A DNA stretch of 64,000 bases, from the NCBI GenBank assembly GCA_964642835.1, contig CAZXQA010000002.1, forward strand, positions 11,875 through 75,874, in the 5' to 3' direction. The DNA comes from an uncultured Candidatus Saccharibacteria bacterium (GTDB lineage: Bacteria; Patescibacteriota; Minisyncoccia; Phycocordibacterales; Zambryskibacteraceae). Below the pieces are notes generated by a model that saw nothing but the letters and a program-made list of their open reading frames with translations, made no database searches and had not been told where the DNA came from. Below are positions 3,001-62,065 of this stretch, piece by piece (the stretch's first letter is position 1; every line of letters starts with the position of its first letter). Both the position numbers and the translations under genes were made by a program.

Positions 3001-3167
3001 ATTGTTTAACGGCCAATTTACTCGTTATTTTTACTGTCCTTTAATTCTACCATCTTTTGTCCTTTATTGCAAGTCCCGTCCATTATGTGCCTCAGAGACA
3101 GATCTTGCAAGAGCCTCTGTGGACAAAAAGACCCTGAGAGGCGTGTGGTAGAATATGAGAGCTCTAT

Positions 3168-5690: not shown

Positions 5691-6719
5691 ATGCCTAAAG
5701 CGAAACCGCAAGAAGAAAAGTCAGAAACCCCGTCCGAGAAACGCACCGGCAATATCGAGAACACGCTCGACGCGATCCGCACCAAGTTCGGCGAAGACTC
5801 TATTATGAAATTGGGTGACAAGCCGAAGGTTGGCGTTGATGCCATCCCTACTGGCTCGATCGGCCTCGACTCCGCTCTCGGCGTCGGTGGTCTCCCCCGC
5901 GGTCGCATTATCGAAATTTTTGGTCCCGAATCATCCGGCAAAACTACCCTCTCTCTCCACGTGGTGGCCGAAGCTCAGAAGATGGGCGGCATCTGCGCCT
6001 TCATCGACGCCGAGCACGCCATGGACCCGGAGTATGCCAAGCGCTTGGGTGTAAAGATTGATGAGCTCCTCATCTCTCAGCCTGACACCGGCGAACAGGC
6101 TTTGGAAATTGTCGACTCTCTCGTGCGCTCCGGCAAGCTCGACGTCATCGTCATCGACTCCGTGGCCGCTCTCACCCCGAAGGACGAGATCGAGGGTGAT
6201 ATGGGCGCTCACCACGTCGGCAAGCAGGCTCGTCTCATGTCTCAAGCCCTCCGCAAGCTCACGGCGATCGTCGCGAAGACGAAGACCGTCGTCATCTTTA
6301 TTAACCAGATCCGCATGCAGATCGGCGTCATGTTTGGCAACCCTGAGACTACTCCGGGCGGCAAGGCGCTCAAGTTCTACACCTCCGTGCGTCTCGACAT
6401 CCGTCGTATCGCCCAGATTAAAAAGGGTGAAGAGGTCATGGGCGGCCGCACGCGCGTGAAGGTCGTGAAAAACAAGGTCGCTGCCCCATTCAAGCAAACC
6501 GAGTTCGATCTCATGTACAACGAGGGCATCTCCAAAGAGGGCGAAATGATTGCGCTCGGTGAGAAGTTTGGCTTCATTCAGAAAGCCGGTTCGACCTACA
6601 AGTACAACGGCGAGAAGCTCGCGGTCGGCTACGATGCCACCCGCACCTACCTCCGTGAGAACAAAAAGATCTCCGATGAGATCATGAAAGAAATCAGAAC
6701 GAAGTTGAAGGAAGTCTAA
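5691..6719 (+). CDS. recA: Recombinase RecA
   Basis: [10 protein letters not shown] Walker A and full-length similarity to RecA ([17 protein letters not shown]). About 20 aa basic N-terminal extension. Confidence 0.95.
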
Positions 6720-9591: not shown

Positions 9592-11002
9592 TGAGACGAG
9601 GGAACAGTGGTTGCTCAGGCTTCTGGTTCGCCTTAATAAGAGCCTTAATCTTTGCGGATGTCTCGGGCATGAAGGGGTTAATAAGTCGAGCGATGGAATA
9701 AAGCTCGAGCACGAGAGCCGAGATCACTGCCTGATCCTTTGTCTCCCACGGCTTACTGTCTTGAATCTTTTTGTCCAGGGACCAGATTCTCTTCCAGACA
9801 TACTCGAGAGCGTTCTTTACTTCATAGGCATTGAGGTAGGCAAAATATTCCGACATATCTTCTCTCTCGGGAACCGGTACCGGCGCGGAGAGGTTCGCCT
9901 GAGCCAACGTCATGATGCGAGAGGTAAGATTCCCCAGACCGTTCACGAGGTTCGAGGTGTAGGCAATATTAAAGCTCTCGATACTGACGTCGGTGTCTTC
10001 GAACTGGTTCACCCCCGCCATGAGCACGCGGAACACTTCCCGACCGAAACGCGTCACCATCTCATGCGGCGTAATAAAGTTGCCGAGACTCTTCGACATC
10101 TTTTGTCCGCCAACATTGAGGAAGCCGTGAATAACAATCTGCTTCGAAGGGGTGAGGCCAGCCGAGAGAAGCATCGCCTGCCACATGGCCGCCTGTTGGC
10201 GCACCTGGTCCTTGCCGGCAAATTGCACTACCGGCCACCACTTCTGGAAGTTCGCCGTGTTGTCGGGCCAACCGATGGTCGAGATGTAGTTGGTGAGCGC
10301 GTCGAACCAGACGTACATGACGTGCTCTTCATCATCCGGCACCGCGACACCCCAGGGCATCTTGGACTTCAAACGAGAGATGGAGAAATCTTCGAGTCCC
10401 CTCTCGACGAACTTAATAATTTCGTTAAAGCGGAAATCAGGAATAACGAACTCAGGATTTTCCCGATACAACTTCAAGAGAGGGTCCTGATACTTCGAGA
10501 ACCGGAAGAAATAATTTTCTTCCTCGCGGATCTCAAGATCTTTGTTCGGGTGGAGTGGGCAAACACCATCCACAAGCTCGGAATCCGTCTTCTCGAGTTC
10601 GCAGCCGTTACAATACTTGATCGTGTAATTCTTTTTATAAATATCCCCCGCTTCTTTGCAACGCTTCCACATTTCCTGCGCCGCCATCTTGTGATGCGAA
10701 TCAGTGGTGCGGATAAAGTGAACAATCTCTTCATCAATACCGAGGAGCGCAATGAGTTCCCGGAACTTCGCCGCGTACTCATCCGTATACGCCTGCGTAT
10801 CTTGTCCGGCTTCTTCGGCCTTAGTGTAAATCTTTACTCCATGCTCATCGGTGCCTGTGTTGAAGAAAACTTCTCTCCCCTGGAGCCTCATAGCCCTTGC
10901 CACAACATCGGCGTGAATAAGCTCCATGGCAAATCCGATATGTGGCTCCGCATTCACATAGGGTAACGTCGTCGTGATGTAGAAAGGTTTCTGCTCAGAC
11001 AT
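9584..11002 (-). CDS. metG: Methionyl-tRNA synthetase, minimal form without a C-terminal tRNA-binding domain
   Basis: LPYVNAEPHIGFAME (HIGH), KMSKSLGN, and a CxxC...CPLH zinc knuckle. Confidence 0.93.
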   Translation of the reverse strand: MSEQKPFYITTTLPYVNAEPHIGFAMELIHADVVARAMRLQGREVFFNTGTDEHGVKIYTKAEEAGQDTQAYTDEYAAKFRELIALLGIDEEIVHFIRTTDSHHKMAAQEMWKRCKEAGDIYKKNYTIKYCNGCELEKTDSELVDGVCPLHPNKDLEIREEENYFFRFSKYQDPLLKLYRENPEFVIPDFRFNEIIKFVERGLEDFSISRLKSKMPWGVAVPDDEEHVMYVWFDALTNYISTIGWPDNTANFQKWWPVVQFAGKDQVRQQAAMWQAMLLSAGLTPSKQIVIHGFLNVGGQKMSKSLGNFITPHEMVTRFGREVFRVLMAGVNQFEDTDVSIESFNIAYTSNLVNGLGNLTSRIMTLAQANLSAPVPVPEREDMSEYFAYLNAYEVKNALEYVWKRIWSLDKKIQDSKPWETKDQAVISALVLELYSIARLINPFMPETSAKIKALIKANQKPEQPLFPRLNA

Positions 11003-33097: not shown

Positions 33098-33130
33098 AAG
33101 TAGAAAATTAATCTAGATGGCTTCTCAAAT

Positions 33131-33168
33131 GTATACCTAGAAGGGGTTAAAGAGAAGCCGGATTTTAT
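33131..33168 (-). repeat. Cassette repeat R0, truncated terminal copy (T-module 3' part only)
   Basis: gtatacctagaaggggttaaagagaagccggattttat matches the distal part of R1-R6. It marks the distal end of the array. Confidence 0.7.
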
Positions 33169-33177
33169 AAAACTTGC

Positions 33178-33699
33178 CTACTTAGCTAAATCCAACACGT
33201 TTGCCAAAACGCTCTCAATATCTTGATTCGCATCCACCACCAATGCACCCTGCTCCACCAAGCTTCTTTCTATCTTCTCTTTTCTTTCAAGAATATAGTC
33301 CTGAACTTCTGGAGATTTACCGAACCCATTATCGGTTCGAGCAAGTAATCTGCTGCGGACATTCTCTGGGCTCGCAACTAACAAAATTACTTTGCTAAAC
33401 AATGAGACTATTTCTTCTAAGTTATTCGGAGCTCCACAATAGAAAACTAATTCATTCTCCTGATTAGCAATAATCTCTTTGAGCTTATCCTTTTTATACA
33501 GCCAATACATCTTCTGGATTTTCTCCAGATCATTGTTGTTGTCATAGGGTGTAGGAAGTCCTGTCTTTTTATCCACCATGACACACAAATCTTCCACTCC
33601 ATCCATATCACGAGTTTCGTAACCTAAAGCTTTGAGTCTGCGGCTTACTTCGGACTTACCTGAGCCGCTAACTCCTGCAATAAGAATTGATTGCTTCAT
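33178..33699 (-). CDS. Cassette gene 1: P-loop NTPase / nucleoside-nucleotide kinase-like
   Basis: GVSGSGKS Walker A near the N-terminus; small kinase fold. Confidence 0.7.
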   Translation of the reverse strand: MKQSILIAGVSGSGKSEVSRRLKALGYETRDMDGVEDLCVMVDKKTGLPTPYDNNNDLEKIQKMYWLYKKDKLKEIIANQENELVFYCGAPNNLEEIVSLFSKVILLVASPENVRSRLLARTDNGFGKSPEVQDYILERKEKIERSLVEQGALVVDANQDIESVLANVLDLAK

Positions 33700-33806
33700 G
33701 CAGAAACTATACCAGAATAAGAATCGTTGGGGCCAGAGTAGGAAAATTATTCTGAGGGTGTTTTCAGATAGAGTATACCTGGAAGGGGTTAAAGAGAAGC
33801 TGGATT
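33700..33806 (-). repeat. Cassette repeat R1 (P-module + T-module)
   Basis: ataccagaataag...ttggggccagagtaggaaaattattctg...gtatacctggaaggggttaaagagaagctggatttta; the upstream gene's TAA stop is embedded in the repeat. Confidence 0.85.
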
Positions 33807-34361
33807 TTATCTCATCATTTCAACTAATCCCTCTAAACAAGGAGGTAACTGTGTCCATCCACTAGACCCGTTAAGATGCCTGCCATTTGGCACAAGAACC
33901 AACTCACCCCCCAATTCCCTTGAAAGGGTTCCGGCGTTAGACACTGGAACATTTGGATCATTGTCTCCGTGGATAATCAGAAACTTACCGCATTTTGTCT
34001 TAGCTTTTTGATAATCAAAAGGAGTTTCAAGGAACGTATCAATCTTCCTATTGTTATTCTTCTCACTGGGACCGGACACAAGCACAACCCCAGCGATATT
34101 CCTTGATTCTTCGGACTCCAAATAACGCAGAATTGCTGGGACACCCAAGCTGTGTCCTACGAGATAGATCTCATCTTCCGTATTCATATCTGCCACTCTT
34201 CTGATTTCATTTACCCAATCATTGCAAATAGGTTGAGATGGGTTGGGCATTGGTAAGGCACAAGCATAGACATCGTGCTTCTCAAGCTCTCCCATCAACC
34301 AAGGTCTCCATCCACCATTTGGGCTTCCTTCAAATCCGTGAATTATAAAAACTTTTTTCAT
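33807..34361 (-). CDS. Cassette gene 2: YdeN/RBBP9-like serine alpha/beta hydrolase
   Basis: GHSLG nucleophile elbow and IHGDNDPNVP, in an alpha/beta hydrolase of about 185 aa. Confidence 0.7.
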   Translation of the reverse strand: MKKVFIIHGFEGSPNGGWRPWLMGELEKHDVYACALPMPNPSQPICNDWVNEIRRVADMNTEDEIYLVGHSLGVPAILRYLESEESRNIAGVVLVSGPSEKNNNRKIDTFLETPFDYQKAKTKCGKFLIIHGDNDPNVPVSNAGTLSRELGGELVLVPNGRHLNGSSGWTQLPPCLEGLVEMMR

Positions 34362-34454
34362 TTCAATACTTTAATAATACCTTTAATTGCTTCGAGTTTA
34401 TTGTCTGGATTCTTAAACCGCCAAAGATACTCTTCCAAATGAGCTGCGACACTC

Positions 34455-34613
34455 GGCTTATCCTTATATGGTAACGACTATACCAGAATAAGCCACTCAC
34501 CTACCCCTTCAAGAACCTTATTCTGAACTGGGGCCAGAACAGGAAAATTATTCTGGAGGTGTTTTCGGATAGGGTTTATTTGGAGAGTCTGAGGGAAAAG
34601 CTCGATTTTATAG
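34455..34613 (-). repeat. Cassette repeat R2
   Basis: Same P and T modules. The P-module has an extra inverted copy (cagaataag...cttattctg). An 80-nt stretch with a start-less 38-codon ORF lies between the P-module and the gene 2 ATG. Confidence 0.85.
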
Positions 34614-35255
34614 CTAAAGCAGCTCCTTAAGTTCAATAAGATTATTCACTTTCTTCCACGCAACCTTTTCCAACTCAACCGCCTCAAACTCCGTTCTTAC
34701 AGCAACACCATTGCTGGTGAGACTAAACAGACCAATATCGTTAGAGCTGTCCCCCACTGGCACACATTCATTTATATTGAGCCCGTGTTTTTCTCTAAAC
34801 TGATTGAATAATTCAATCTTCTTCTCCTTATCACCAGTTACGGTTATAACGTCAGTCAAATTATCTTTTTCATCCCAGACCAATGTCGATATTGCATACC
34901 AATCTGGTATACCAAGCTCTTCTCCTACAAGTTGAGCGTAAAGATCGAAGGAGCCGGTAATCATACAAAGTTTATATCCTTTTTCTTTTAGGTAAGAGAT
35001 TATTTCCTTTGCATCCTCCCTGATGGGAATCTCTTTAAGAATCTTTGTTATATCTTTTTTATTCGCCTTGCCTTCCTTAGACCAGTTTTCAAGACAAAGT
35101 TTATTAGATTCTTGAAGAGTCAACTCTCCCCTTTTCCATCTACCATAAATTTCATCATGGACTTCTATGGATCCGCCTAATCCCAAAGTAAACCTATTCC
35201 AAGAAATATCCCGAGTAAGAGTCCCGTCTATATCAAAAACTACAGCTTTAAACAT
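34614..35255 (-). CDS. Cassette gene 3: HAD-superfamily hydrolase (phosphoserine-phosphatase-like)
   Basis: N-terminal DIDGTL motif I and other HAD motifs (GDSSNDIG). Confidence 0.8.
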   Translation of the reverse strand: MFKAVVFDIDGTLTRDISWNRFTLGLGGSIEVHDEIYGRWKRGELTLQESNKLCLENWSKEGKANKKDITKILKEIPIREDAKEIISYLKEKGYKLCMITGSFDLYAQLVGEELGIPDWYAISTLVWDEKDNLTDVITVTGDKEKKIELFNQFREKHGLNINECVPVGDSSNDIGLFSLTSNGVAVRTEFEAVELEKVAWKKVNNLIELKELL

Positions 35256-35510
35256 ATTAAAACTATACCAGAATAAGAATCGTTGGGGCGACTATCGGGA
35301 TTCGGTCACGGATAATTTCTTGCTAGAAATTTCCGCTACCCCCCGCTCGGCCCGTCGGCCTCCGCACTTCGAATCCCGTAGACGTGAATAGAAAAAGCCG
35401 CCACACGGGCGGGCCTTTTCTATTCATGGGCCAGAGTAGGAAAACTATTCTGGATGTCTTCTCAGATAGAGTATACCTTGAGGGTGTCAAAGAGAAGCTG
35501 GATTTTATTG
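35256..35510 (-). repeat. Cassette repeat R3 with a 142-nt insert (35289..35430)
   Basis: The insert begins with a tRNA-His 3'-end-like cgactatcggg. It shares a 55-nt GC-rich segment with the tRNA-Val scar. It carries a bidirectional terminator hairpin at 35386..35425. Confidence 0.85.
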
Positions 35511-36389
35511 CTAACTTTGCAGCTTAGTTTGTTGCCAAGTGATATGAGGCAAAGCAGCTGCCAACATAATCAAACTGCCGCCGACAGCAATTTGAATAGT
35601 AAGGGCTTCTTTGAAGATAAGGATGCCGAAGATAACCGCAAATACCACTTCAAGCAATGACAACAAACCTCCAACACTCGCTTCGATGTATTTATAACCT
35701 TCTATAGCAAGCCAGAATCCAAGTAGACTCACTACTGCATAAATAACCAGATACAGCCAAGTAATATTCAATACTGGCCAATGTTGCATCTCTCCTAAAG
35801 CAACTGACGCCACAGCATTTGTAATGGCGATTATGATCCAACTGAGCCATGTAATATATAAGGGAGAATAAGACCCGGTTAGTTTCTTTGAAGAAGACAA
35901 TTCAAGTCCACTCGCCAATCCATTAAGAAGAGCCATGGAAGCTGCAAGAAGCGTAAACGCCGTCAAAGAGAACGAGAAGGTGATATAAAGCCCTAAGCAG
36001 GCAAGAAGAAAAGCGAATAGCTTTATTCTTGTCACCCGCTCTCCGAGAAATATAAAGCCAAAGGAATACATCATGATAATCATGCCGACAAAGAACAAGA
36101 GAGTGGCGGTACCAATGTCCATATGATTAAACGCATAGTAGATAGGGGCCTGAGTAAGTGAAGTAGAGACAAGGAACACCGACATCCATTTCCAATCCTC
36201 TCTCTTTATTGAAACAATTTGTTTCTTGTATAAAACAATTGGCAAAAGAAGAACTGCAATTAAAAGAGTTCTCGTCCAACCTTGATAGAAAACACCAAAA
36301 CTATCCCCCATTAGTCGAGACCAGACTCCATAACTTCCAAACATAAGAGTGGAAACAAGAAGAAAACCTATTCCCTTTGAAACTTTCAT
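35511..36389 (-). CDS. Cassette gene 4: EamA/DMT-family transporter
   Basis: Ten TM helices with duplicated EamA-type halves. Confidence 0.75.
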   Translation of the reverse strand: MKVSKGIGFLLVSTLMFGSYGVWSRLMGDSFGVFYQGWTRTLLIAVLLLPIVLYKKQIVSIKREDWKWMSVFLVSTSLTQAPIYYAFNHMDIGTATLLFFVGMIIMMYSFGFIFLGERVTRIKLFAFLLACLGLYITFSFSLTAFTLLAASMALLNGLASGLELSSSKKLTGSYSPLYITWLSWIIIAITNAVASVALGEMQHWPVLNITWLYLVIYAVVSLLGFWLAIEGYKYIEASVGGLLSLLEVVFAVIFGILIFKEALTIQIAVGGSLIMLAAALPHITWQQTKLQS

Positions 36390-36700
36390 ATTAAAACTAT
36401 ACCAGAATAAGCATCCTTCCCTACCCCTTCGAAAACCTTATTCTGAATTGGGGCGACTAGAGAGACGCTACGCTATCGAACTCCTCGGAAACCCACGGTT
36501 TTCCGAATCCTTCCTCCACGGGGAACTCCCGTTCCCCGACCCCCTCCCCGTTCGATTCTCTCCAGGGCCGGAGTGAAAATAAAAAGACCCACGCGAGGCG
36601 GATCTTTTTATTTTCATGGGCCAGAGTAGGAAAATTATTCTGGAGGTGTTTTCGGATAGAGTGTACCTAGAAGGGGTTAAAGAAAAGCTGGATTTTATCT
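36390..36700 (-). repeat. Cassette repeat R4 with a 167-nt insert (36454..36620)
   Basis: The insert begins cgactagagag... This is a degenerate copy of the tRNA-His variable loop, T-arm and acceptor on the same strand as tRNA-His. It also has an AAAATAAAAAGA...TCTTTTTATTTT terminator hairpin at 36575..36615. Confidence 0.85.
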
Positions 36701-37231
36701 CTAACTTTCAGCTTTCTTCACCATCTCCATCTCGGTAAAGATAGCCCCACTTTTCATTCTAAACCGCTCGTCTTGGAACCTCCTGCCCGTATCTGTAAAT
36801 CCAATATTCTTATAGAAGTTAATGGCCCCTTGATTGTAATCAACAACTTCCACATATGTATCTTTTGTATGGTCAGTGAATTCTATCGCTTTTGACCAGA
36901 GCAGTTTACCAACGCCCTTACCTTGAAAATCAGGGAGGACATAGATTGCCTGAAGCTGGTTTCTATCTTCTTTCTTAATTACACGACACACCCCAATTAC
37001 TTCACCGCTATTTTTAGCCACCAATAAAATCTCATCCTCCTTTGACTCTAGAATTTGTTTACGTTGCTTTTCCACACCCCCTTCTTCCCTCTTCTTATTA
37101 ATCCTCTCTTGAATATCCTCAAGATAAATGCCCTTTTCTTCGTTTGGGTAAGTAGCGAGCCAAGTTATATCAAAAACATTCCGAATTCCTTCAGCATCTT
37201 CCGGCTTTGGTTTTTCAATAACAAAATCCAT
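36701..37231 (-). CDS. Cassette gene 5: GNAT-family N-acetyltransferase
   Basis: Acetyl-CoA binding motif VLPDFQGKGVGKLL and the GNAT fold. Confidence 0.85.
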   Translation of the reverse strand: MDFVIEKPKPEDAEGIRNVFDITWLATYPNEEKGIYLEDIQERINKKREEGGVEKQRKQILESKEDEILLVAKNSGEVIGVCRVIKKEDRNQLQAIYVLPDFQGKGVGKLLWSKAIEFTDHTKDTYVEVVDYNQGAINFYKNIGFTDTGRRFQDERFRMKSGAIFTEMEMVKKAES

Positions 37232-37388
37232 TACTCAAACTATATCAGAATAAGCATCCTTCTTTACCCCTTCGAGAACCTTATTCTGAATTGGGGCCAG
37301 AGTAGGAAAATTATTCTGGAAGTATTCTCAGATAGAGTATACCTGGAGGGGGTTAAAGAAAAGCTGGATTTTATTGCTAACTTCCCAA
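37232..37388 (-). repeat. Cassette repeat R5
   Basis: Same organisation as R4 but without the insert. Confidence 0.85.
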
Positions 37389-37949
37389 TCACTTATCTTG
37401 CCCGGTCCTAAATTTAAGATTTGGTGGGGTAACCTTACTTTGACCACCACCATATTGACTTTGAATCTTTTGAACTACCGGGTCTTTTAACTCCGCAAAT
37501 ACCATCATCGCAATAGGGTCCTTGAATTTAAGTTTGACTCTAAAGTTGCCTACATTTTTTATTTCAAGCACAACAACGTGAGGCATTTCAAATGTCCCAT
37601 CTGCAATAGAAGCAGTGATGTGAGTCGTTATGCCTAAACGAGCAACAGTGCTTCTACCATCTAAAATTGCCAAGATATTTGGCGGAGTTTGTATGGCTTC
37701 ATAAGTTGCTCCAAGAATAAACTGATTTGGTTCAAGATAAAATTCTTCTTTAGTAAGGTCAATTTCCTTATACTTGAGCTCTTGTGCCCCTCCAATCTCA
37801 ACTGTTTGATTTGGTTCAGGAACAAGAATTTCTTTTGCCAAATGAATGCGAAGTCCGACTGGCCTGATATTTTTCTTATCAAATTCTGGCTTGATAATTA
37901 TCTGTCCTTCGTCTATGAGTTTCTCAATTGTTTGGTGTGATAAAAACAT
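37389..37949 (-). CDS. Cassette gene 6: dCTP deaminase / dUTPase-superfamily protein
   Basis: Similarity to Dcd-like proteins (IKPEFDKKNIRPVGLRIHL...ILGATYEAIQTPPNILAILDGRSTVARLGI). Confidence 0.7.
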   Translation of the reverse strand: MFLSHQTIEKLIDEGQIIIKPEFDKKNIRPVGLRIHLAKEILVPEPNQTVEIGGAQELKYKEIDLTKEEFYLEPNQFILGATYEAIQTPPNILAILDGRSTVARLGITTHITASIADGTFEMPHVVVLEIKNVGNFRVKLKFKDPIAMMVFAELKDPVVQKIQSQYGGGQSKVTPPNLKFRTGQDK

Positions 37950-38095
37950 ACGTTAAGTATAAGTCAGAATAAGAACCTATTCCTACTCCTTCAGATAAAT
38001 TATTCGTTGGGCCAGAGTAGGAAAATTATTCTGGAGGTGTTTAGTGATAGGGTTTATTTGGAGAGCGTGGCGGAAAAACTCGATTTTATAGGTAA
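37950..38095 (-). repeat. Cassette repeat R6
   Basis: Same P and T modules. Confidence 0.85.
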
Positions 38096-38716
38096 CTACC
38101 TAGGGGTAAGTCGGTAAGTTGAAACTTGAACCAGAAGTACCAAGCAAAGCCATCCTATAGCTAATGGGGAGACAAGCCACCAAACGATCGAGGTTACCAT
38201 AGTGGCATACAAGTGGATATGCTTCATGTTTTTTCTCATTCCCAAAATGACCGGAATAGTTCTCATTCTCTCCTCCTTGTCTTTTTCCACATCACGCATG
38301 TCACCGGTTAAATTTCTGGCGAACAATACCGCCCCGACGAGATAAGGAATGTATGAGGCATACCCTGTAATTGCCCCGACAATCAGAAGGTTCTGGAGCC
38401 CTCTGCAGAATGGACTTAGCCACCCTAAATTCTTGGTTTTCTTTGTATACAAGTAACTAACAAAGATATATAAGATACCTTCTAGTCTTTTAAATAAAAG
38501 TAGGCCAAAAATAGCTAAGATGTAAGAAAAACTTACAGGCACTCTCTTTCTATAGGTGTGAGCGTGTCTATTTTCTAAATGAGCCAGGAAAGCAACGTGC
38601 AACAATAATGCTCCCCAAAACTGATGAGTTATTGCACCGACAGCAATAAGCAGAAGTACTAAATCTGCCAACGAATATAGGCGTAGCTGTCCCAAGTAAT
38701 TCAAAAACGTCTTCAT
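38096..38716 (-). CDS. Cassette gene 7: polytopic membrane protein with a UbiA-like Asp-rich motif (GDMRDVEKD)
   Basis: About six TM helices and a single DxxDxxxD motif. Function uncertain; possibly a truncated prenyltransferase. Confidence 0.45.
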   Translation of the reverse strand: MKTFLNYLGQLRLYSLADLVLLLIAVGAITHQFWGALLLHVAFLAHLENRHAHTYRKRVPVSFSYILAIFGLLLFKRLEGILYIFVSYLYTKKTKNLGWLSPFCRGLQNLLIVGAITGYASYIPYLVGAVLFARNLTGDMRDVEKDKEERMRTIPVILGMRKNMKHIHLYATMVTSIVWWLVSPLAIGWLCLVLLVQVSTYRLTPR

Positions 38717-38750
38717 ATAAAAAGCATACCAGTCAGAATAAGAAACACTA
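38717..38750 (-). repeat. Cassette repeat R7 (P-module only) joining gene 7 to tRNA-His
   Basis: cagtcagaataagaaacacta immediately 3' of tRNA-His, in the same position the P-module takes next to the tRNA-His remnants in R3/R4. Confidence 0.7.
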
Positions 38751-38823
38751 GGGCGACTAGAGAGAATCGAACTCTCGAGACCAGCTCCACAAGCTGGAGT
38801 TTTACCACTAAACTATAGTCGCC
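38751..38823 (-). tRNA. tRNA-His (GTG) with an encoded G-1
   Basis: GGCGACUA...UAGUCGCCC gives an 8-bp acceptor stem including G-1:C73. Anticodon loop UUGUGGA. T-loop GUUCGAUUC. Confidence 0.88.
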
Positions 38824-38894
38824 ATCAGGAGCACAAGCCCATTATACATTTCTGTACGAATCGAGCCCGCAATTAAGCGAGCTCGATTTCGCAC

Positions 38895-40327: not shown

Positions 40328-40392
40328 ACAGTGCCCATTGGGGCCCGAAGCCCGTGCAAAAACAATACAACATATGCTAGTATCTCGCTATT

Positions 40393-40468
40393 GCGGGATT
40401 AGCTCAGTTGGTAGAGCAACTCTTTTACACAGAGAAGGTCACAGGTTCGAGTCCTGTATCCCGCACCC
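40393..40468 (+). tRNA. tRNA-Val (TAC)
   Basis: GCGGGAU acceptor stem, anticodon loop UUUACAC, T-loop GGUUCGAGUCC. Confidence 0.85.
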
Positions 40469-40561
40469 GATGGACGAGAAGCGCGCAGGCCGACGGGCCG
40501 AGCGGGGGTCGCGAAAATTTCAGTAAGAAATTATTCGTGACCGAGTCCTGTATCCCGCACC
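40469..40561 (+). repeat. att-like scar downstream of tRNA-Val. A 55-nt segment related to the R3 insert is followed by a 22-nt direct duplicate of the tRNA-Val 3' end
   Basis: ...aggccgacgggccgagcgggggtcgcgaaaatttcagtaagaaattattcgtgaccGAGTCCTGTATCCCGCACC. The capitals repeat 40447..40468. Confidence 0.7.
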
Positions 40562-41218: not shown

Positions 41219-41306
41219 GGGAGGAGTGGCGGAGTGGTCTAACGCACCTGTCTTGAAAACAGGAGGGCTCGCAAGGGTCCCGTGAGTTCGAATCTCACCT
41301 CCTCCG
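41219..41306 (+). tRNA. tRNA-Ser (TGA)
   Basis: GGAGGAG acceptor stem, anticodon loop CUUGAAA, and a long variable arm. Confidence 0.85.
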
Positions 41307-41341
41307 CAACTTATTTAATTAAATTAAGGTAAGCTAGGTTC

Positions 41342-42133
41342 ATGAACCCTGACCATATCTCTCATCGCAAATTTATCCTCGGAGCGAGTGTTGTTGCCGC
41401 TATTTTAATCTTTTCTGCGCATACCGTTTCTCGTCACACTCCCTCCAATTCTCTCCCTGAAGTCCCCGAGGAAGTTTCTGACACCACCTCTTCCCCACCC
41501 GCTTCTCTGACTGAAAGTGCTCCAGCAGAAACCTTGATCCCCACTCTCTCACTTGCGGAAGCTCTGAGTGCGATACCATCAGACGAATCGGCCGAGCCCC
41601 TTTCATCAAGTTCAAATCAAATCATCCTTGAGAAACTTGGTCTTATGTTCGATCTCCCTAAGGGGTACACGGCGTACCAGAAGGAAGGTTTTGAAGGAGG
41701 ATACGGCTTGAACGTCGTCATAACCAAGGACGTTACTCCTGGTCACGTAACGTATGCCGCTATTACTATGAGAACCTTTTACGGTGAGCAGGTCAGTCAT
41801 GAGACTCCTCACGAACCATTCTTCTCTGCGAAGAACTATCTTTCCGCTCTCGTTAAACAAATTAACCTGAAAGAAGCCGAGGCTACTCACTTTTCTTTCC
41901 ATAGTCTGTACCGCACCCCCGCGAAGACCACTCTTGCAGGAAGAGAAGCTCTGTTCTATGAATATGATGAAGTGGACTTGAGTTATCACGTGGTGACGGT
42001 TCTCTCAGGTTCCTGGTATGATTCCGAATATCTCGGATTAGAGATCAGCAGTTCCACCTACGGCACCGGCGCCCAGTTCAACCCCGCCCTCTTTAAACAG
42101 ATTGTGCTCAGCCTCCGACCTATTAACAAATAA
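41342..42133 (+). CDS. Hypothetical secreted/membrane-anchored protein
   Basis: N-terminal TM helix and a Ser/Pro-rich linker; no recognised domain. Confidence 0.55.
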   Translation: MNPDHISHRKFILGASVVAAILIFSAHTVSRHTPSNSLPEVPEEVSDTTSSPPASLTESAPAETLIPTLSLAEALSAIPSDESAEPLSSSSNQIILEKLGLMFDLPKGYTAYQKEGFEGGYGLNVVITKDVTPGHVTYAAITMRTFYGEQVSHETPHEPFFSAKNYLSALVKQINLKEAEATHFSFHSLYRTPAKTTLAGREALFYEYDEVDLSYHVVTVLSGSWYDSEYLGLEISSSTYGTGAQFNPALFKQIVLSLRPINK

Positions 42134-59122: not shown

Positions 59123-59386
59123 CTAGGCGTATAAAATCTTCCTGACGGGCAATTTATAGAGTCCTCGTAACTCGTCCATAATCCCTTCTTCTTTGAGACG
59201 GATCTCATTTTTCGCTACGGCGCTTGAGATCTCAATTTTCAATACTCCGTCCTTAAAGGAAACTTGATCTTGCGTGAGAGTAACGCGGGCTCTTGTGCGA
59301 ATCACATCAACGACAGCGCTCTTGGCGATGCCGTCACGATTAAGCGCTTTAGCAAACCGTTCGAGGAGGCTTTGAATATTGCGCAT
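59123..59386 (-). CDS. DUF721/DciA-like protein
   Basis: 87 aa immediately downstream of dnaN, with a DUF721-like pattern. Confidence 0.6.
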   Translation of the reverse strand: MRNIQSLLERFAKALNRDGIAKSAVVDVIRTRARVTLTQDQVSFKDGVLKIEISSAVAKNEIRLKEEGIMDELRGLYKLPVRKILYA

Positions 59387-60489
59387 TAGGCCTGATTCAT
59401 CGGCATAACGAGATAGAGGAAGCTCGTATCCCCTACTCCTTGGATAATAATCGGCTTGGCTTGTCCGCTGAAGGAGAGCATCAAGCTATCAGTCGTGACC
59501 GACTGGAAACAATCCGTGAAGTAGCGATGATTCACATTAATCACAATCTCTTCTCCTTCAAGAGCGGCATCAACTTTATGAACGCTTTCACCCACCGTGG
59601 AATTCTTCGATTCGATTTCAAACGTTTTCTCCGTTGGCGAGAGTTTGAGCGTAAGTTGGTTAAAGGAGTCCGAGAAAATAAGCGAAGTCTTCAAGGAGTT
59701 GATGAGGTCCTGCTTGAGGAGGGTGGCGGAGGAAGTCTTCTCCTTAGGAATAATCTGGCGATAATCTGGGAACACACCCTCGATAATACGCGAGGTGAGA
59801 TAAATACCGTGCGAGCGTAGAGCAATCTGATGCTCGGTAATAGAGATCGAGACCTCTTCCTCGCCTCGATCGAAGATCTTCACCATCTCCAAGGCATTCT
59901 TCTGAGGAATGAGGATTTGCTTAAAGTGAGGCATCTTCTTAATGCGGATCTTCTTCTCCGCCAAACGGAAAGAGTCTGTCGCCGCAAAGACAAGTGAGTC
60001 CCCTTCGTGAGTGACGCTCACCGAAGAGAGCTCAGGCTTAATGCTTCCTACGGCTGCCGCATAGATGACCGAGCGGATTCCGAAGACGAAATCGCGCACT
60101 GGCATGGTAAAGGCGTTATCCTCGCTCACTTCCGGAATAATCGGGAAATCCTCAAGTGAGAGGGTTTTGATATTGGTCTTTGTCGAAGCAGTCTTCACCT
60201 CGACAACCTGTCCTTTTACAGTGAAGGTGATATTCCTATCCTTGGTGAGCGAGGAGACGAAGGATGACGTAATATGGGCCGGGATAACGAGTTCGCCTGG
60301 TTCAACGACTTTGACCGGGATCGTGATGGAAAGCCCGATGTCGAGGTTTGTAGCCTTAATGGTGAGGCTTGAGCCGGCTGCTTCGAGTTTGAATCCCGAG
60401 AGAACGGGTAGGCTCGTATTCTTCCCCGCGATCTTGTCGGCTTTGTTCAATGCCTCCTCGAGTTGTTCCTTAACGCATTCTATCTTCAT
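59386..60489 (-). CDS. dnaN: DNA polymerase III beta sliding clamp
   Basis: Three-domain clamp similarity; the dnaA-dnaN synteny supports it. Confidence 0.92.
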   Translation of the reverse strand: MKIECVKEQLEEALNKADKIAGKNTSLPVLSGFKLEAAGSSLTIKATNLDIGLSITIPVKVVEPGELVIPAHITSSFVSSLTKDRNITFTVKGQVVEVKTASTKTNIKTLSLEDFPIIPEVSEDNAFTMPVRDFVFGIRSVIYAAAVGSIKPELSSVSVTHEGDSLVFAATDSFRLAEKKIRIKKMPHFKQILIPQKNALEMVKIFDRGEEEVSISITEHQIALRSHGIYLTSRIIEGVFPDYRQIIPKEKTSSATLLKQDLINSLKTSLIFSDSFNQLTLKLSPTEKTFEIESKNSTVGESVHKVDAALEGEEIVINVNHRYFTDCFQSVTTDSLMLSFSGQAKPIIIQGVGDTSFLYLVMPMNQA

Positions 60490-60712
60490 GGTGTGTATAT
60501 TATTTATATATAAATACTTAGTAGTAGCAGTAGAGGGTGTGGATATGTGGGTAAGTCGGCAAGTGGCTTGGTTGAGCGGAATCTAGGAAATTGTCTCCTG
60601 GGAAGCTGGGGAGAGCGAAGGATGAAATGTGTACGCTACTCCCCCTTGCCGACCCCTCTCCTGTTTCTGCCCTTCTTATTAACATTCTTTCCCGAATTTT
60701 TCCACACGTTGT
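60490..60712. promoter_or_regulatory. Candidate chromosomal replication origin (oriC) between dnaA and dnaN
   Basis: AT-rich DUE-like tract at 60491..60520. Near-consensus DnaA boxes TGTGGATAT (60538..60546) and TTTTCCACA (about 60697..60706). Confidence 0.6.
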
Positions 60713-62065
60713 TCATACATTTAATAAACCCCTGATCTGCTCAACTTCCTCAGCGAGAGACTGGTCCTCTCGAAGGTCGTTCTTCATCTTCTCGCAGGAG
60801 TGGATAACTGTTGTGTGGTCACGGCCACCCAACTTCTGTCCGATAGAGGGATACGAGATCCCGAAGTCCTCACGGAGGAGATACATAATGATCTGTCTCG
60901 GCTTAATGACTTCCTTATGGCGAGTCTTCTCGTAGATGCTCTCCTCCTTCACGTTGTAGAAGTCGGCGATAATCTTGACCACATCCTTCACCGCGATCGA
61001 CTTCTTCGGCTTCACGTTGTTCTTGATGTAGTTACGAGTATCAAGCAGAGTCGGATCCTTGCCTTTGAGCTGGATTTGCATGAGGAGCGTGTTGATAACG
61101 CCTTCCAGCTCACGAATATTGCCGTTAATTGTTTGAGCAAGGTAATCGATGATTTCGGGGGTAAGGCCGATACCCAACTGCTTGGCTTTGGCGGAAATGA
61201 TGGCAATCCGACTCTCTTTGTCCGGGGCGGGAATGTCGACGGTCATACCCGCCGCCATGCGACTCTTCAAGCGATCTTCGAGGCCGGTAATGAAGTGAGG
61301 ATGTTTGTCGGACGAGAAGATGATCTGGCGGTTGTTGTCGTAGAGAGAGTTAAAGGTGTGGAACAACTCTTCTTGGACGCGCTGCTTCTCGGAGAAGAAT
61401 TGGATGTCGTCGACAATGAGGACGTCGTATTTGCGGTACTTCTCCTTAAAGACATGCATCTTCTGGTGTTGGAGAGCGTTCATGAACTCAACTGAGAACT
61501 GTTCGGAAGTGAGATAGTAGACCTTTTTCCCTGGTGACATGGTCTTAATATGGTTCCCCACCGCCTGGATGAGGTGAGTTTTACCATGGCCGGTCGAGCC
61601 ATAGATAAAGAGTGGGTTGTACATAATCCCTGGCTTCTTGATGACAGCTTGAGCGGCGGCATGGGCTAATTCGTTGAAGGGGCCAATCACAAAGTTCTCA
61701 AAGGTGTAGCGCGGGTTGAGGTTATCCTCCTTGTTAACGCTTACTTCCGTGAGCGGAAGTTCGCGCGACATCCCTATCTCCCTTGGCTTACTATCATCTC
61801 GACGGCGAGCTTCTTCCTTATTCACCACATATTCGACACTGTGGATGGAATGTTCGATATTGCGCAGGCTGCGAAGGATAGCGCTGTGGTATTTGGTGAG
61901 GAGCCACTCTTTTACGAAGGCATTCGGTACGGAAAGAACCACTACCCCACCATCTTCCTTAACAATGCGAGTGTCTTTAAACCAGGTGGTGAAGTTTGCC
62001 TTAGAAACTCCGAGTTCCATCTCTACTAATACATGTTGCCAAAGCTGTTTGTAATCCATAGTCAA
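60713..62065 (-). CDS. dnaA: Chromosomal replication initiator DnaA
   Basis: AAA+ GSTGHGKTHL Walker A and a C-terminal DnaA-box-binding domain. Confidence 0.95.
   Translation of the reverse strand: MTMDYKQLWQHVLVEMELGVSKANFTTWFKDTRIVKEDGGVVVLSVPNAFVKEWLLTKYHSAILRSLRNIEHSIHSVEYVVNKEEARRRDDSKPREIGMSRELPLTEVSVNKEDNLNPRYTFENFVIGPFNELAHAAAQAVIKKPGIMYNPLFIYGSTGHGKTHLIQAVGNHIKTMSPGKKVYYLTSEQFSVEFMNALQHQKMHVFKEKYRKYDVLIVDDIQFFSEKQRVQEELFHTFNSLYDNNRQIIFSSDKHPHFITGLEDRLKSRMAAGMTVDIPAPDKESRIAIISAKAKQLGIGLTPEIIDYLAQTINGNIRELEGVINTLLMQIQLKGKDPTLLDTRNYIKNNVKPKKSIAVKDVVKIIADFYNVKEESIYEKTRHKEVIKPRQIIMYLLREDFGISYPSIGQKLGGRDHTTVIHSCEKMKNDLREDQSLAEEVEQIRGLLNV

What the first reader, a model, noticed from the sequence alone, without database searches (positions are those of the whole stretch)
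33098..38823. Integron-like array of seven single-gene cassettes bounded by a conserved ~110-nt repeat and anchored at tRNA-His
Seen directly: seven unrelated small genes, all on the minus strand, each followed within 0-16 nt of its stop by the same ~80-nt T-module. The genes are a P-loop kinase, a YdeN-like hydrolase, a HAD hydrolase, an EamA transporter, a GNAT, a Dcd-like deaminase and a UbiA-like membrane protein. In transcript sense the T-module reads aATAAAATCCAGCTTTTCTTTAACCCCTTCTAGGTATACTCTATCCGAAAACACCTCCAGAATAATTTTCCTACTCTGG. Next comes a GGGG junction, then a ~25-35-nt P-module ending CTTATTCTGGTATAGTTTTAAT just before the next ATG. Copies are 85-90% identical. The distal copy (R0) is truncated. 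The proximal end is the 3' end of tRNA-His. The region is visibly more A+T-rich than its flanks. The gene content (GNAT, small hydrolases, transporter) and the stop-codon-embedded repeats resemble superintegron cassettes with VCR-like attC sites. Here the array is attached to a tRNA, and no IntI-like or any other recombinase is present in 64 kb. Repeats this conserved between unrelated genes are unexpected in a small, streamlined genome. This suggests a site-specific cassette capture system with the tRNA-His 3' end acting as the primary attachment site.
Basis: partly seen in the sequence, partly recalled or inferred. Interest (0 to 1): 0.9.

Follow-up and report, generated by a model that had tools for sequence, protein, structure and literature searches.

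The report
Mobile gene-cassette array anchored at tRNA-His
Seven unrelated small genes sit in a row behind a tRNA-His gene in a tiny-genome (Patescibacteria) bacterium; each has the same start and end modules, close relatives carry different genes at exactly the same junctions, and no recombinase gene lies nearby, so it works like an integron but is not one.

Summary
Seven minus-strand genes (33178-38716) follow tRNA-His. They are about 40% G+C against 53% in the flanks. Six intact copies and one decayed copy of an ~80-nt "T-module" separate them, and the module occurs nowhere else in the 64 kb.

Close relatives with the same flanks (L19-tRNA-Leu-tRNA-His ... DM13) carry different cassettes. 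The slot next to tRNA-His holds UbiA here, another gene in L001, a kinase in L005 and nothing in L031. Gains and losses end exactly at a ...GCCC(C)| junction. That junction follows the tRNA-His 3' end, a tRNA-His-like end of a structured ~100-nt "H-element", or the T-module end. All four half-site combinations occur. One cassette sits behind two different tRNA-His genes. This fits conservative site-specific recombination, not homologous recombination.

No recombinase was detected in the window or in any T-bearing locus. It is not an integron: no IntI and no attC consensus.

Two surprises:
- The T-module carries a protein-like conserved antisense micro-ORF (pN/pS about 0.19) that is never part of a longer protein.
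- The H-element belongs to an unannotated structured-RNA family also found after other tRNA genes.

Verdict: an integron-like, tRNA-anchored cassette platform served by an unlinked recombinase. It is a new variant of a known kind.

The parts
38751..38822 (-). tRNA-His (GTG). Its 3' end ...TAGTCGCCC| is the proximal anchor and insertion point of the array.
   Evidence: ARAGORN; Rfam tRNA 66.6 bits; relatives differ immediately downstream of this end.
38717..38750 (-). P-module of cassette 1 (TTTCTTATTCTGA...TGGTATGCT, then ATG 6 nt later).
   Evidence: Read. The same proximal part travels with the UbiA gene in L005.
38096..38716 (-). Cassette 1 gene: UbiA-like membrane protein, 206 aa.
   Evidence: Its orthologue is the second cassette in L005.
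38010..38089 (-). T-module R6. The antisense peptide on the + strand reads LGQSRKIILEVFSDRVYLESVAEKLDFI.
37950..38009 (-). Long P-module, type A. It holds an inverted copy of the T end (GGAGTAGGAA) and the motif TTCTTATTCTGA.
37389..37949 (-). Cassette 2 gene: dCTP deaminase-like, 186 aa.
   Evidence: Pfam DCD 7e-28; TIGR02274 110 bits, above its cut-off.
37295..37374 (-). T-module R5.
37232..37294 (-). Long P-module, type B. It is an imperfect palindrome with the T end and includes an inverted fragment of T.
   Evidence: family D3; z -2.1 and -2.3.
36701..37231 (-). Cassette 3 gene: GNAT acetyltransferase, 176 aa.
36619..36698 (-). T-module R4. The antisense ORF here has an ATG start (MGQSRK...).
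36576..36612 (-). Intrinsic terminator hairpin followed by a T-run. Its G-U pairs favour the minus (cassette) strand.
   Evidence: Read. The same module follows tRNA-His directly in L031.
36450..36575 (-). H-element, R4 type. It is G+C-rich and looks like a tRNA-His pseudogene: a GTG-containing hairpin and a 3' end TCTCTCTAGTCGCCCC identical to the tRNA-His 3' end.
   Evidence: It is 88% identical to the L031 copy. It is only a weak match to model R1.
36390..36449 (-). Long P-module, type B, of the EamA cassette.
35511..36389 (-). Cassette 4 gene: EamA transporter, 292 aa.
35429..35508 (-). T-module R3, with an ATG start for the antisense ORF.
35388..35422 (-). Intrinsic terminator.
   Evidence: stem 35398-35412 followed by a T-run.
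35285..35386 (-). H-element, R3 type. It is a three-way-junction structured element whose 3' strand (CGAATCCCGATAGTCGCCCC) mimics the tRNA-His 3' end.
   Evidence: Fold z -2.98. 11 of 30 pairs show compensatory changes and one G-U pair is conserved. Model R1 scores 108 bits.
35256..35284 (-). Short P-module (AACGATTCTTATTCTGGTATAGTTTTAAT, then ATG).
34614..35255 (-). Cassette 5 gene: HAD-IB phosphatase, 213 aa.
34532..34611 (-). T-module R2, a divergent copy.
34362..34531 (-). Type-B P-module plus about 110 nt of extra spacer.
33807..34361 (-). Cassette 6 gene: Ser_hydrolase (YdeN-like), 184 aa.
33731..33810 (-). T-module R1. The stop codon of the hydrolase gene lies inside it.
33700..33730 (-). 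Short P-module of the kinase cassette.
   Evidence: The same P-module sits directly behind tRNA-His in L005 and behind an H remnant in L031.
33178..33699 (-). Cassette 7 gene: AAA_18 P-loop kinase, 173 aa.
   Evidence: It is the last cassette here and in L031 but the first in L005.
33098..33177 (-). R0, a decayed full-length T-module that ends at the DM13 start codon.
   Evidence: Equivalent decayed copies lie before DM13 in L031 and L032.

Best explanation
The locus is a hot spot where small mobile gene cassettes are added and removed by conservative site-specific recombination. The recombinase is encoded elsewhere in the genome.

Cassette anatomy. A cassette consists of:
- a P-module. It carries the motif TCTTATTCTG and an extended -10-like TGGTATAGT about 7 nt before the ATG, which suggests its own promoter and a leaderless mRNA. 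This reading is inferred.
- one gene, sometimes two or three.
- the ~80-nt T-module, which ends ...CTCTGGCCC(C).

Docking site and crossover. The docking site is the 3' end of tRNA-His (...TAGTCGCCC(C)|), or the identical 3' end carried by a tRNA-mimicking structured H-element. The crossover lies in or next to the shared GCCC(C). Two kinds of left half-site (tRNA/H core, T end) therefore combine freely with two kinds of right half-site (P-module, or ATG-terminator-H).

Reaction scheme (inferred). Recombination between the tRNA core and a T end would excise a circle whose junction is T|P. Such a circle could re-insert at a core site. This would give the head-to-tail array, with the newest cassettes next to the tRNA.

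Shown here: the anatomy, the precise junctions, all four half-site combinations, the turnover between near-identical genomes, and the sharing of one cassette between different tRNA-His backgrounds.

Inferred only: the enzyme (tyrosine or serine recombinase, not identified), the circular intermediate, promoter activity of P, and any role of the antisense micro-ORF and the H RNA.
For: 1. Turnover at fixed flanks. The interval from L19-tRNA-Leu-tRNA-His to DM13 holds different genes in each relative.
- Window: UbiA, Dcd, GNAT, EamA, HAD, hydrolase, kinase.
- L005: kinase, UbiA, glyoxalase-like, NADAR-like, a small ORF, VanW, a second AAA protein.
- L031: a small ORF, VanW, kinase.
- L032: His_Phos, NUDIX, HD.
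- L001, whose L19 protein is identical to the window's: another gene comes first.

2. Precise end points. L031 and L005 are 97.6-100% identical in the backbone. They differ by two blocks, L005 1519-2958 and 3126-4119. The ends of these blocks are tRNA...GTCGCCC| against T...CTGGCCC|, and H...TAGTCGTCC| against T...CGGCCCC|. Only about 4 nt are shared at these ends, so homologous recombination is not plausible.

3. All four half-site combinations occur: core|P, T|P, T|ATG-terminator-H and core|ATG-terminator-H.

4. Horizontal sharing. The first cassette of L001 is visibly near-identical in DNA (by my reading of the alignment) to the first cassette of the distant L010. Their tRNA-His genes differ, and the homology starts right after the tRNA. 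The kinase copies in L005 and L031 are 88-92% identical against a 97.6-100% backbone.

5. The H 3' strand equals the local tRNA-His 3' end. This holds over the whole aligned stretch up to the contig end in L011, over 16 nt for window R4, and over 20 nt for L025 against the window tRNA.

6. The T-module is widespread. It occurs in at least 10 further contigs, always after the 3' end of a different gene. tRNA-His lies 1-3 genes upstream in L010, L011 and L023. In the P0004 contig, L19 lies just upstream of the T-bearing gene; no DNA was held for that contig, so its tRNA genes could not be checked.

7. A 13-nt stretch of T (GGAAAATTATTCT) is all but invariant in 19 copies: a single substitution in one copy, even though several of its positions are synonymous in the overlapping ORF. 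The inverse motif recurs in P. This fits a protein-binding site.

8. Composition. Cassettes have a foreign G+C content.

9. Independent assemblies of the same strain confirm the window order.
Against: - No recombinase was identified anywhere. None is in the window and none in any T-bearing contig. The mechanism therefore rests on junction anatomy alone.
- No circular junction or empty-site read was examined.
- The shared core is very short (GCCC). That is unusual for tyrosine recombinases, which need 6-8 identical bases.
- One junction (window tRNA-His to UbiA, GCCC|TAGTG) does not follow the rule and looks like a secondary deletion.
- L005 is a scaffolded MAG with runs of N inside the array.
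- The protein-like conservation of the T-module is not explained by this model.
- The P-modules are not picked up by the simple sigma-70 scan.
Confidence: 0.6

Rival explanations
1. Ordinary tandem accretion of larger integrase-carrying elements at a tRNA gene, as in tycheposons, genomic islands or CIME-type accretion. The elements then decayed, so today's 'cassettes' are leftovers and not units of a dedicated cassette system.
For: - H-bearing junctions are partial tRNA-His repeats of the classical attL/attR kind, with identity starting in the T-loop.
- The same H-motif, flanked by a 20-nt repeat of the tRNA 3' end, sits after tRNA-Val.
- An H-motif followed by a 16-nt repeat of the tRNA 3' end sits after tRNA-Ser.
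- L031 carries a large-serine-recombinase element next to tRNA-Ser.
- Tandem integrations separated by partial tRNAs are described for tycheposons (10.1101/2020.12.28.424599).
Against: - No integrase fragment was found in any of about 15 arrays or contigs.
- Units are uniformly 0.6-1.2 kb, hold single genes, and share P and T modules.
- Most junctions (T|P) contain no tRNA repeat at all.
- The T-module is conserved across distant lineages, which decay would not give.
Confidence: 0.17
2. The P and T modules are regulatory punctuation (promoter and 3'-UTR or terminator). Gene content is shuffled by RecA-dependent homologous recombination between these ~110-nt portable repeats after DNA uptake, as in 'minimal mobile elements'.
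For: - The repeats are 79-99% identical and all in direct orientation.
- recA lies in the window, by my reading of the ORF at 5691-6719.
- Cassettes appear to have their own promoter-like sequence, and two have true terminators.
Against: - Key end points join partners that share no homology beyond about 4 nt: the tRNA 3' end against the T end, and the H end against the T end.
- One cassette begins exactly at the end of two different tRNA-His genes.
- H copies carry the tRNA 3' end.
Confidence: 0.1
3. An RNA-level reading. The array is a tRNA-led transcription unit. The tRNA-like H-elements and T-modules are RNA processing or stability signals, a form of tRNA punctuation through RNase P and RNase Z. 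Differences between genomes come from unrelated indels.
For: - H has RNA-type covariation and a conserved G-U pair on the tRNA-sense strand.
- H occurs after several tRNA genes and before terminators.
- The terminator hairpins have G-U pairs on the cassette strand (read).
Against: - It does not explain the precise gain and loss of whole cassettes, the foreign G+C content, or the same cassette behind different tRNA-His genes.
- It could be true of H in addition to the recombination model.
Confidence: 0.08
4. Assembly artefact. The repeats caused chimeric joining of unrelated contigs in the MAGs.
For: - Public contigs break at the repeats.
- L005 has runs of N inside the array.
Against: - Independent Logan assemblies reproduce the Dcd-GNAT and EamA-HAD adjacencies across the repeats. 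A separate contig carries the UbiA gene followed by a short antisense ORF call, as expected for a T-module.
- The junctions used as evidence lie in contiguous sequence in L001, L005, L031 and L010.
Confidence: 0.03

Closest known systems
Integrons, especially sedentary chromosomal 'superintegrons' with VCR-type attC sites
   Same: - A head-to-tail array of mostly single-gene cassettes, all in one orientation.
- A conserved ~80-120-nt module right after each stop codon, sometimes containing it.
- One fixed insertion point at the proximal end.
- Cassette content differs between close relatives.
- Cargo of small accessory enzymes.
   Different: - No IntI anywhere in 64 kb.
- The anchor is a tRNA 3' end, not an attI next to intI.
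- The T-module lacks the RYYYAAC/GTTRRRY boxes and does not fold on its own.
- The apparent crossover lies at the end of T, in GCCC(C), not in a G|TT box.
- Cassettes seem to carry their own promoter-like module.
- The module overlaps a conserved antisense micro-ORF.
tRNA-targeting integrative elements and island building by tandem integration, e.g. tycheposons of Prochlorococcus (10.1101/2020.12.28.424599) and CIME/ICE accretion
   Same: - Insertion at the 3' part of a tRNA gene.
- Partial tRNA copies inside the island (H-elements).
- Newer units appear to push older ones away from the tRNA.
- The host has a streamlined genome.
   Different: - The units are about 1 kb and carry no integrase, replication or excision genes.
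- Most unit boundaries (T|P) are not tRNA repeats.
- A second, non-tRNA site (the T end) takes part.
- The partial tRNA is embedded in a conserved structured element.
Xer-dependent modules (IMEX elements, pdif modules of Acinetobacter plasmids)
   Same: Small cargo modules that move without a linked recombinase gene and use an enzyme encoded elsewhere.
   Different: - No 11-6-11 dif-like site is recognisable.
- All sites are in direct orientation, not alternating.
- The locus is about 22 kb from dnaA, so it is not near a terminus.
- The anchor is a tRNA.
Folded single-strand recombination sites (integron attC bottom strand; the CTX-phi forked hairpin used by XerCD)
   Same: The H-element folds so that a hairpin stem reproduces in double-stranded form the 3' end of the target tRNA gene. 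Its structure is strand-specific, shown by a conserved G-U (G-T) pair.
   Different: There is no evidence here for a single-stranded DNA intermediate. H may simply be an expressed RNA. No related recombinase was found.

Membership tests
Integron | IntI-type tyrosine recombinase gene next to the array | tested here: not met
   phmmer with XerD and Cre (sequences recalled from memory) against all 445 ORFs of the window gave no hit better than E = 0.3. Pfam on 20 additional ORFs gave no recombinase family.
Integron | attC sites: imperfect palindromes with R''/L''-L'/R' boxes (RYYYAAC...GTTRRRY) that fold as bulged hairpins | tested here: not met
   T plus a short P folds no better than shuffles on either strand (z +0.6 and +0.9). 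The consensus boxes are absent (alignment). The type-B T|P junction (R5) is an imperfect palindrome (z -2.1 and -2.3). The type-A junction (R6) folds no better than shuffles (z -0.5 and -0.2). Both have different box sequences. Rfam gave no hit in the region.
Integron | Array of mostly single-ORF cassettes in one orientation, with variable content between relatives and insertion at the proximal site | tested here: met
Integron | Promoterless cassettes expressed from a common Pc promoter | tested here: inconclusive
   Each cassette has TGGTATAGT-like sequence 6-7 nt before its ATG (read). The simple sigma-70 scan does not call these sites. No expression data are available.
tRNA-targeting integrative element / genomic island (including tycheposons) | Insertion at the 3' part of a tRNA gene, with a direct repeat of that part at the far boundary | tested here: met
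   This is met for the H-bearing boundaries (window R3, R4; L010, L011, L025). It is not met for the T|P boundaries.
tRNA-targeting integrative element / genomic island (including tycheposons) | Element-encoded integrase (with or without excisionase) next to the att site | tested here: not met
   None in the window or in any fetched T-bearing locus. The only recombinase seen is a large serine recombinase in L031, in a separate element next to tRNA-Ser.
Xer-dependent modules (IMEX, pdif) | 28-31-bp dif-like site: two ~11-bp arms around a 6-8-bp spacer | tested here: not met
   The window copies contain CCAGAATAA-TTTTCC-TACTCTGG, but the right arm is not kept in distant copies. The inverted CAGAATAA motifs lie 26 nt or more apart.
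Known RNA families (Rfam 15), for the H-element | Match to a curated covariance model | tested here: not met
   cmscan with E up to 5-10 over the array and over five related loci found only tRNAs and chance-level hits.
Known protein families, for the T-module micro-ORF | Match to Pfam, PHROGs or PDB, or membership in a longer protein | tested here: not met
   Pfam gave nothing, PHROGs nothing and PDB nothing. Of 5.8 billion clusters, the search returned only 42-57-aa ORFs. Of 1.84 billion representatives, all but two hits were 39-100-aa ORFs. The two longer hits were a 131-aa repetitive protein and P0007 (1125 aa, eight short stretches), which I did not inspect.
Anti-phage defence systems (PADLOC) | Cassette proteins match defence-system models | tested here: not met
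   Only two marginal hits, at E = 0.004 and 0.00025.

The most novel reading that the evidence does not exclude
Patescibacteria (candidate phyla radiation) possess their own gene-capture platform, functionally parallel to the integron but unrelated to it. In this reading:
- the 3' end of tRNA-His serves as the attachment site;
- a dedicated ~80-nt cassette-end module carries the second site and also encodes a conserved ~30-aa peptide;
- a tRNA-mimicking structured element (H) acts either as a portable docking site or as a folded single-strand substrate;
- the recombinase is unlinked and of a family not yet tied to cassettes.

This would be a main route by which these minimal genomes sample accessory enzymes.
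Probability: 0.3. Interest if true: 0.9.

Novelty: new variant of a known kind. Interest (0 to 1): 0.78.

Why it matters
Patescibacteria have genomes of about 1 Mb and few recognised mobile elements. How they gain and lose accessory genes is largely unknown. A compact cassette platform at a tRNA gene would give that gene flux a concrete, testable mechanism. Its modules can be searched for in any metagenome. It would also show that integron-like logic (one docking site, single-gene cassettes, a recombinase acting in trans) has arisen outside the IntI/attC system.

Two by-products may matter on their own:
- an unannotated structured-RNA family placed after tRNA genes;
- a conserved micro-ORF that is never part of a longer protein.

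Four literature searches found no description of such an array.

Tried and rejected
- Integron/attC reading. Folding both strands, checking for the box consensus and searching Rfam gave no support.
- T-module as the N-terminus of a longer gene such as an integrase. Two database-wide searches returned essentially only 39-100-aa ORFs. Two longer hits were a 131-aa repetitive protein and an uninspected 1125-aa protein matched in short stretches. There were no Pfam, PHROGs or PDB matches. About a third of the copies (7 of 19) have no in-frame start codon at all, and in several others the only start lies far upstream.
- T-module coding on the cassette strand. The alternative frame with coinciding wobble positions has stop codons in 4 of 19 copies and a worse pN/pS.
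- Phage or viral origin. Three scans of IMG/VR for T and H patterns gave 0 hits.
- An exact T-module DNA pattern in JGI metagenomes gave 0 hits. Only a back-translated pattern worked.
- L006, a Lachnospiraceae MAG, was a lone 22-nt match with no T peptide. I treated it as chance.
- Defence-island reading of the cargo. PADLOC gave no support.
- dif/Xer-like simple site inside T. The right arm is not conserved in distant copies.
- The R4-type H-element as a clear member of the R3-type H family. It scores only 12 bits in L031. By eye it looks like a decayed tRNA-His copy.
- The simple promoter scan did not call the P-modules.
- Protein comparison on the L001 cassette failed because I gave the wrong frame. 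A DNA alignment replaced it.

Full report
1. What is there

Between 33098 and 38823 the minus strand carries tRNA-His (38751-38822). Seven unrelated small genes follow it. Pfam assigns them as follows:
- UbiA-like, 38096-38716 (weak match)
- dCTP-deaminase-like, 37389-37949 (also above the TIGR02274 cut-off)
- GNAT, 36701-37231
- EamA, 35511-36389
- HAD, 34614-35255
- Ser_hydrolase, 33807-34361
- AAA_18 kinase, 33178-33699

The block is 0.38-0.43 G+C. Both flanks are about 0.53.

Six intact copies and one decayed copy are present. A 23-nt piece of the repeat occurs six times in the 64 kb, all here, against 0.00 expected. Before each ATG lies a P-module with the motif TCTTATTCTG(G) and a TGGTATAGT-like sequence 6-7 nt upstream of the start.

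2. Junction anatomy

Read in gene sense, every T-module ends ...CTCTGGCCC(C). Two things can follow it.
- A P-module. This is the short junction, at R1, R2, R5 and R6.
- At R3 and R4, the string ATG, then an intrinsic terminator, then a G+C-rich element of 100-130 nt that I call H, then a P-module.

H ends ...TAGTCGCCCC. That is the same sequence as the 3' end of the tRNA-His gene.

There are therefore two kinds of left half-site: the tRNA/H 'core' and the T end. There are two kinds of right half-site: P, and ATG-terminator-H.

3. Comparison with relatives

Names attached to DM13 homologues place the organism in Patescibacteria, near Ca. Zambryskibacteria. The submitter of L005 labelled that MAG Saccharibacteria.

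The flanks RluA-L19-tRNA-Leu-tRNA-His ... DM13-(LapA)-MscL recur in L005, L031 and L032. L001 shares the proximal flank and ends about 190 nt after tRNA-His. The genes in between differ.
- L005: kinase, UbiA, a glyoxalase-like gene, a NADAR-like gene (the latter by my own reading of the translation), a small ORF, VanW, and a second AAA protein.
- L031: a small ORF, VanW, kinase.
- L032: His_Phos, NUDIX, HD_4.
- L001: its L19 protein is identical to the window's, yet another gene comes first.

L031 and L005 are 97.6-100% identical in shared backbone segments. L005 nevertheless has two extra blocks, at L005 coordinates 1519-2958 and 3126-4119.
- Block 1 runs from tRNA...GTCGCCC| to T...CTGGCCC|.
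- Block 2 runs from H...TAGTCGTCC| to T...CGGCCCC|.

In L031 the tRNA-His end is joined directly to ATG-terminator-H. In L005 the same ATG-terminator-H follows a T-module. The partners share only about 4 nt (GCCC), which argues against homologous recombination.

The kinase copies in the two genomes are only 88-92% identical. The copy next to the tRNA in L005 was therefore acquired, not moved from the distal position.

The first cassette of L001 is visibly near-identical in DNA to the first cassette of the distant L010. The tRNA-His genes of these two differ in the T-arm and the acceptor stem. The homology begins directly after the tRNA.

All four half-site combinations exist. This is the pattern expected from conservative site-specific recombination, comparable to attB, attP, attL and attR.

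Independent assemblies of the window's own strain reproduce its cassette order across the repeats. The array is therefore not an assembly artefact.

4. Wider spread

A back-translated T-module pattern found true copies in eight further metagenome contigs. Micro-ORF hits led to five more places: L007, L008, L009, L011 and the P0004 contig, for which no DNA was held. L010 duplicates metagenome locus L012.

In each case T lies just after the 3' end of a different gene. tRNA-His lies 1-3 genes upstream in L010, L011 and L023. In the P0004 contig, L19 lies next to the T-bearing gene.

The full junction T-ATG-terminator-H-P recurs in L010, L011 (up to the contig end) and L025. The H 3' strand tracks the local tRNA-His. 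It is identical over the whole aligned stretch in L011.

5. Recombinase

None was found.
- phmmer with XerD, Cre and gamma-delta resolvase (sequences recalled from memory) found nothing in any ORF of the window.
- The same screen found nothing in any fetched locus held at that point, which included all T-bearing loci.
- Pfam on 20 otherwise unassigned or large window ORFs gave only housekeeping families such as FtsK, PolA and PBP.

L031 carries a large serine recombinase in a separate element beside tRNA-Ser. That element is absent from the window.

The very short shared core (GCCC) and the ~44-bp T|P site with inverted CCAGAATAA/TTATTCTGG ends would suit a serine recombinase. The T-loop-to-3'-end identity of H would suit a tyrosine integrase. 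I cannot decide between them.

6. The T-module is more than a site

On the plus strand all 19 distinct copies keep one open frame, (M/W)G[QP]xRKIIL[ED][VI]FSDR[VI]YLEG[VI]KEKLDFI. Several measures point to coding:
- Variation at the third codon position is 140, against 47 and 19 at positions 1 and 2.
- pS is 0.59 and pN is 0.11.
- Serine switches between TCN and AGY codons.

Against an ordinary gene:
- Seven of the 19 copies have no in-frame start codon at all, and in several others the only start lies far upstream of the conserved peptide.
- Two exhaustive protein searches found it essentially only as 39-100-aa ORFs. A 131-aa repetitive protein and an uninspected 1125-aa protein matched in short stretches were the only longer hits.
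- It matches nothing in Pfam, PHROGs or the PDB.

Inside the frame, 13 nt (GGAAAATTATTCT) are all but invariant, with one substitution in one copy, even though several positions are synonymous. The inverse motif recurs in P. I read this stretch as a protein-binding site.

The ATG of the micro-ORF is assembled only at T|ATG-terminator junctions. What the peptide does remains unexplained.

7. The H-element

Four R3-type copies share a three-way junction. Eleven of 30 pairs show compensatory changes. One G-U pair is conserved, which fixes the functional strand as the tRNA-sense strand.

A covariance model built from these copies finds further members outside the array:
- directly after tRNA-Val in the window (40462-40561, 60.6 bits), and at the same place in L001 and L031;
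- after tRNA-Ser, tRNA-Arg and rplK in L032;
- after tRNA-Leu in L010.

Some of these are followed by terminators.

The tRNA-Val copy is flanked by a 20-nt direct repeat of the tRNA-Val 3' end. The tRNA-Ser copy is followed by a 16-nt repeat of the tRNA-Ser 3' end. In these copies the identity starts inside the T-loop. From memory, this is the T-loop type of tRNA att site described by Williams (2002).

H is therefore either the conserved end of a family of tRNA-targeting elements, or an expressed tRNA-mimicking RNA, or both. Rfam has no matching family.

8. Comparison with known systems

The locus works like an integron: one docking site, single-gene cassettes, and newest cassettes apparently proximal. 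It fails the defining tests for an integron: no IntI, no attC boxes, and no folding of T alone.

It shares tRNA targeting, and partial tRNA repeats inside the island, with integrative elements such as tycheposons. In those, successive integrations push older elements away from the tRNA (10.1101/2020.12.28.424599). The present units differ. They are about 1 kb, lack an integrase, and are mostly bounded by a non-tRNA site.

It shares 'recombinase in trans' with Xer-dependent modules, but has no dif-like site. It also lies about 22 kb from dnaA (my reading of the ORFs at 59386-62065).

Literature searches found no description of such arrays in Patescibacteria.

9. Verdict

The finding is real and non-trivial.
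- Best explanation (about 0.6): a tRNA-His-anchored platform of mobile gene cassettes, driven by an unidentified, unlinked site-specific recombinase.
- Main rival (about 0.17): decayed remains of ordinary tandem integrations.
- Novelty: a new variant of a known kind. There is a fair chance (about 0.3) that it represents a distinct cassette-capture system of the candidate phyla radiation.

Noticed in passing
window 40462-40561 (+), with tRNA-Val at 40392-40468: A second copy of the structured H-motif (model R1, 60.6 bits, E 3e-16) lies directly after tRNA-Val. It is flanked by a 20-nt direct repeat of the tRNA-Val 3' end (CGAGTCCTGTATCCCGCACC). The same element is at the same place in L001 and L031. 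It looks like a ~90-nt miniature insertion or a tRNA-mimicking small RNA. Rfam has no matching family.
   Followed up: partly
L032 4687-4787 (-), 18981-19083 (+), 2579-2703 (-); L010 2888-2988 (+): Further H-motif copies lie after tRNA-Ser (followed by a 16-nt repeat of the tRNA-Ser 3' end), after rplK, after tRNA-Arg (between two terminators) and after tRNA-Leu (followed by a terminator). This is a multi-copy candidate RNA family with the conserved core CCGGAG...CGAGGCGGGGU.GCG.AAAUUU...AAAUUAU.CGUGACC.
   Followed up: partly
window + strand at 33728-33823, 34529-34624, 35426-35521, 36616-36711, 37292-37387 and 38007-38102: A conserved micro-ORF of about 30 codons lies antisense to every T-module (pN/pS about 0.19 over 19 copies). 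Seven of the 19 copies have no in-frame start codon, and no convincing example of it inside a longer protein was found in two database-wide searches. Its function is unknown.
   Followed up: partly
window 33098-33177; L031 about 9917-10000; L032 9940-10000 and 8340-8390: Decayed T-module copies abut the start codon of the conserved DM13 gene in three genomes. In L032 another abuts the His_Phos gene. The old module may now serve as the 5' region of the next gene.
   Followed up: no
L031 1-5369: A separate element lies beside tRNA-Ser. It holds a large serine recombinase (Resolvase, Recombinase, Zn_ribbon_recom), a DNA methylase, a DnaA_C/sigma-like protein and several unknown ORFs. It is absent from the corresponding place in the window (41220-42133).
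   Followed up: no
L032 7337-8023: A 228-aa ORF with a faint LAGLIDADG_3 hit is inserted between L19 and tRNA-Leu. It may be a free-standing homing endonuclease. It is not present in the window.
   Followed up: no
window 38823-38894 compared with L001 3029-3120: The spacer between tRNA-Leu and tRNA-His is entirely different in L001, where it includes a terminator-like hairpin. Yet the L19 protein and the tRNA-His sequence are the same as in the window.
   Followed up: no
window 59386-62065: dnaN and dnaA, judged by their N-terminal sequences, lie about 22 kb from the array. The locus is therefore near the replication origin.
   Followed up: no
L005 5130-5235 and L031 9320-9370: Short remnants of the H 3' end (ATTAGCGA(A/G)GCGTC...TAGTCGCCCC) lie after the VanW gene. 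In L031 the remnant serves as the left junction of the kinase cassette.
   Followed up: partly
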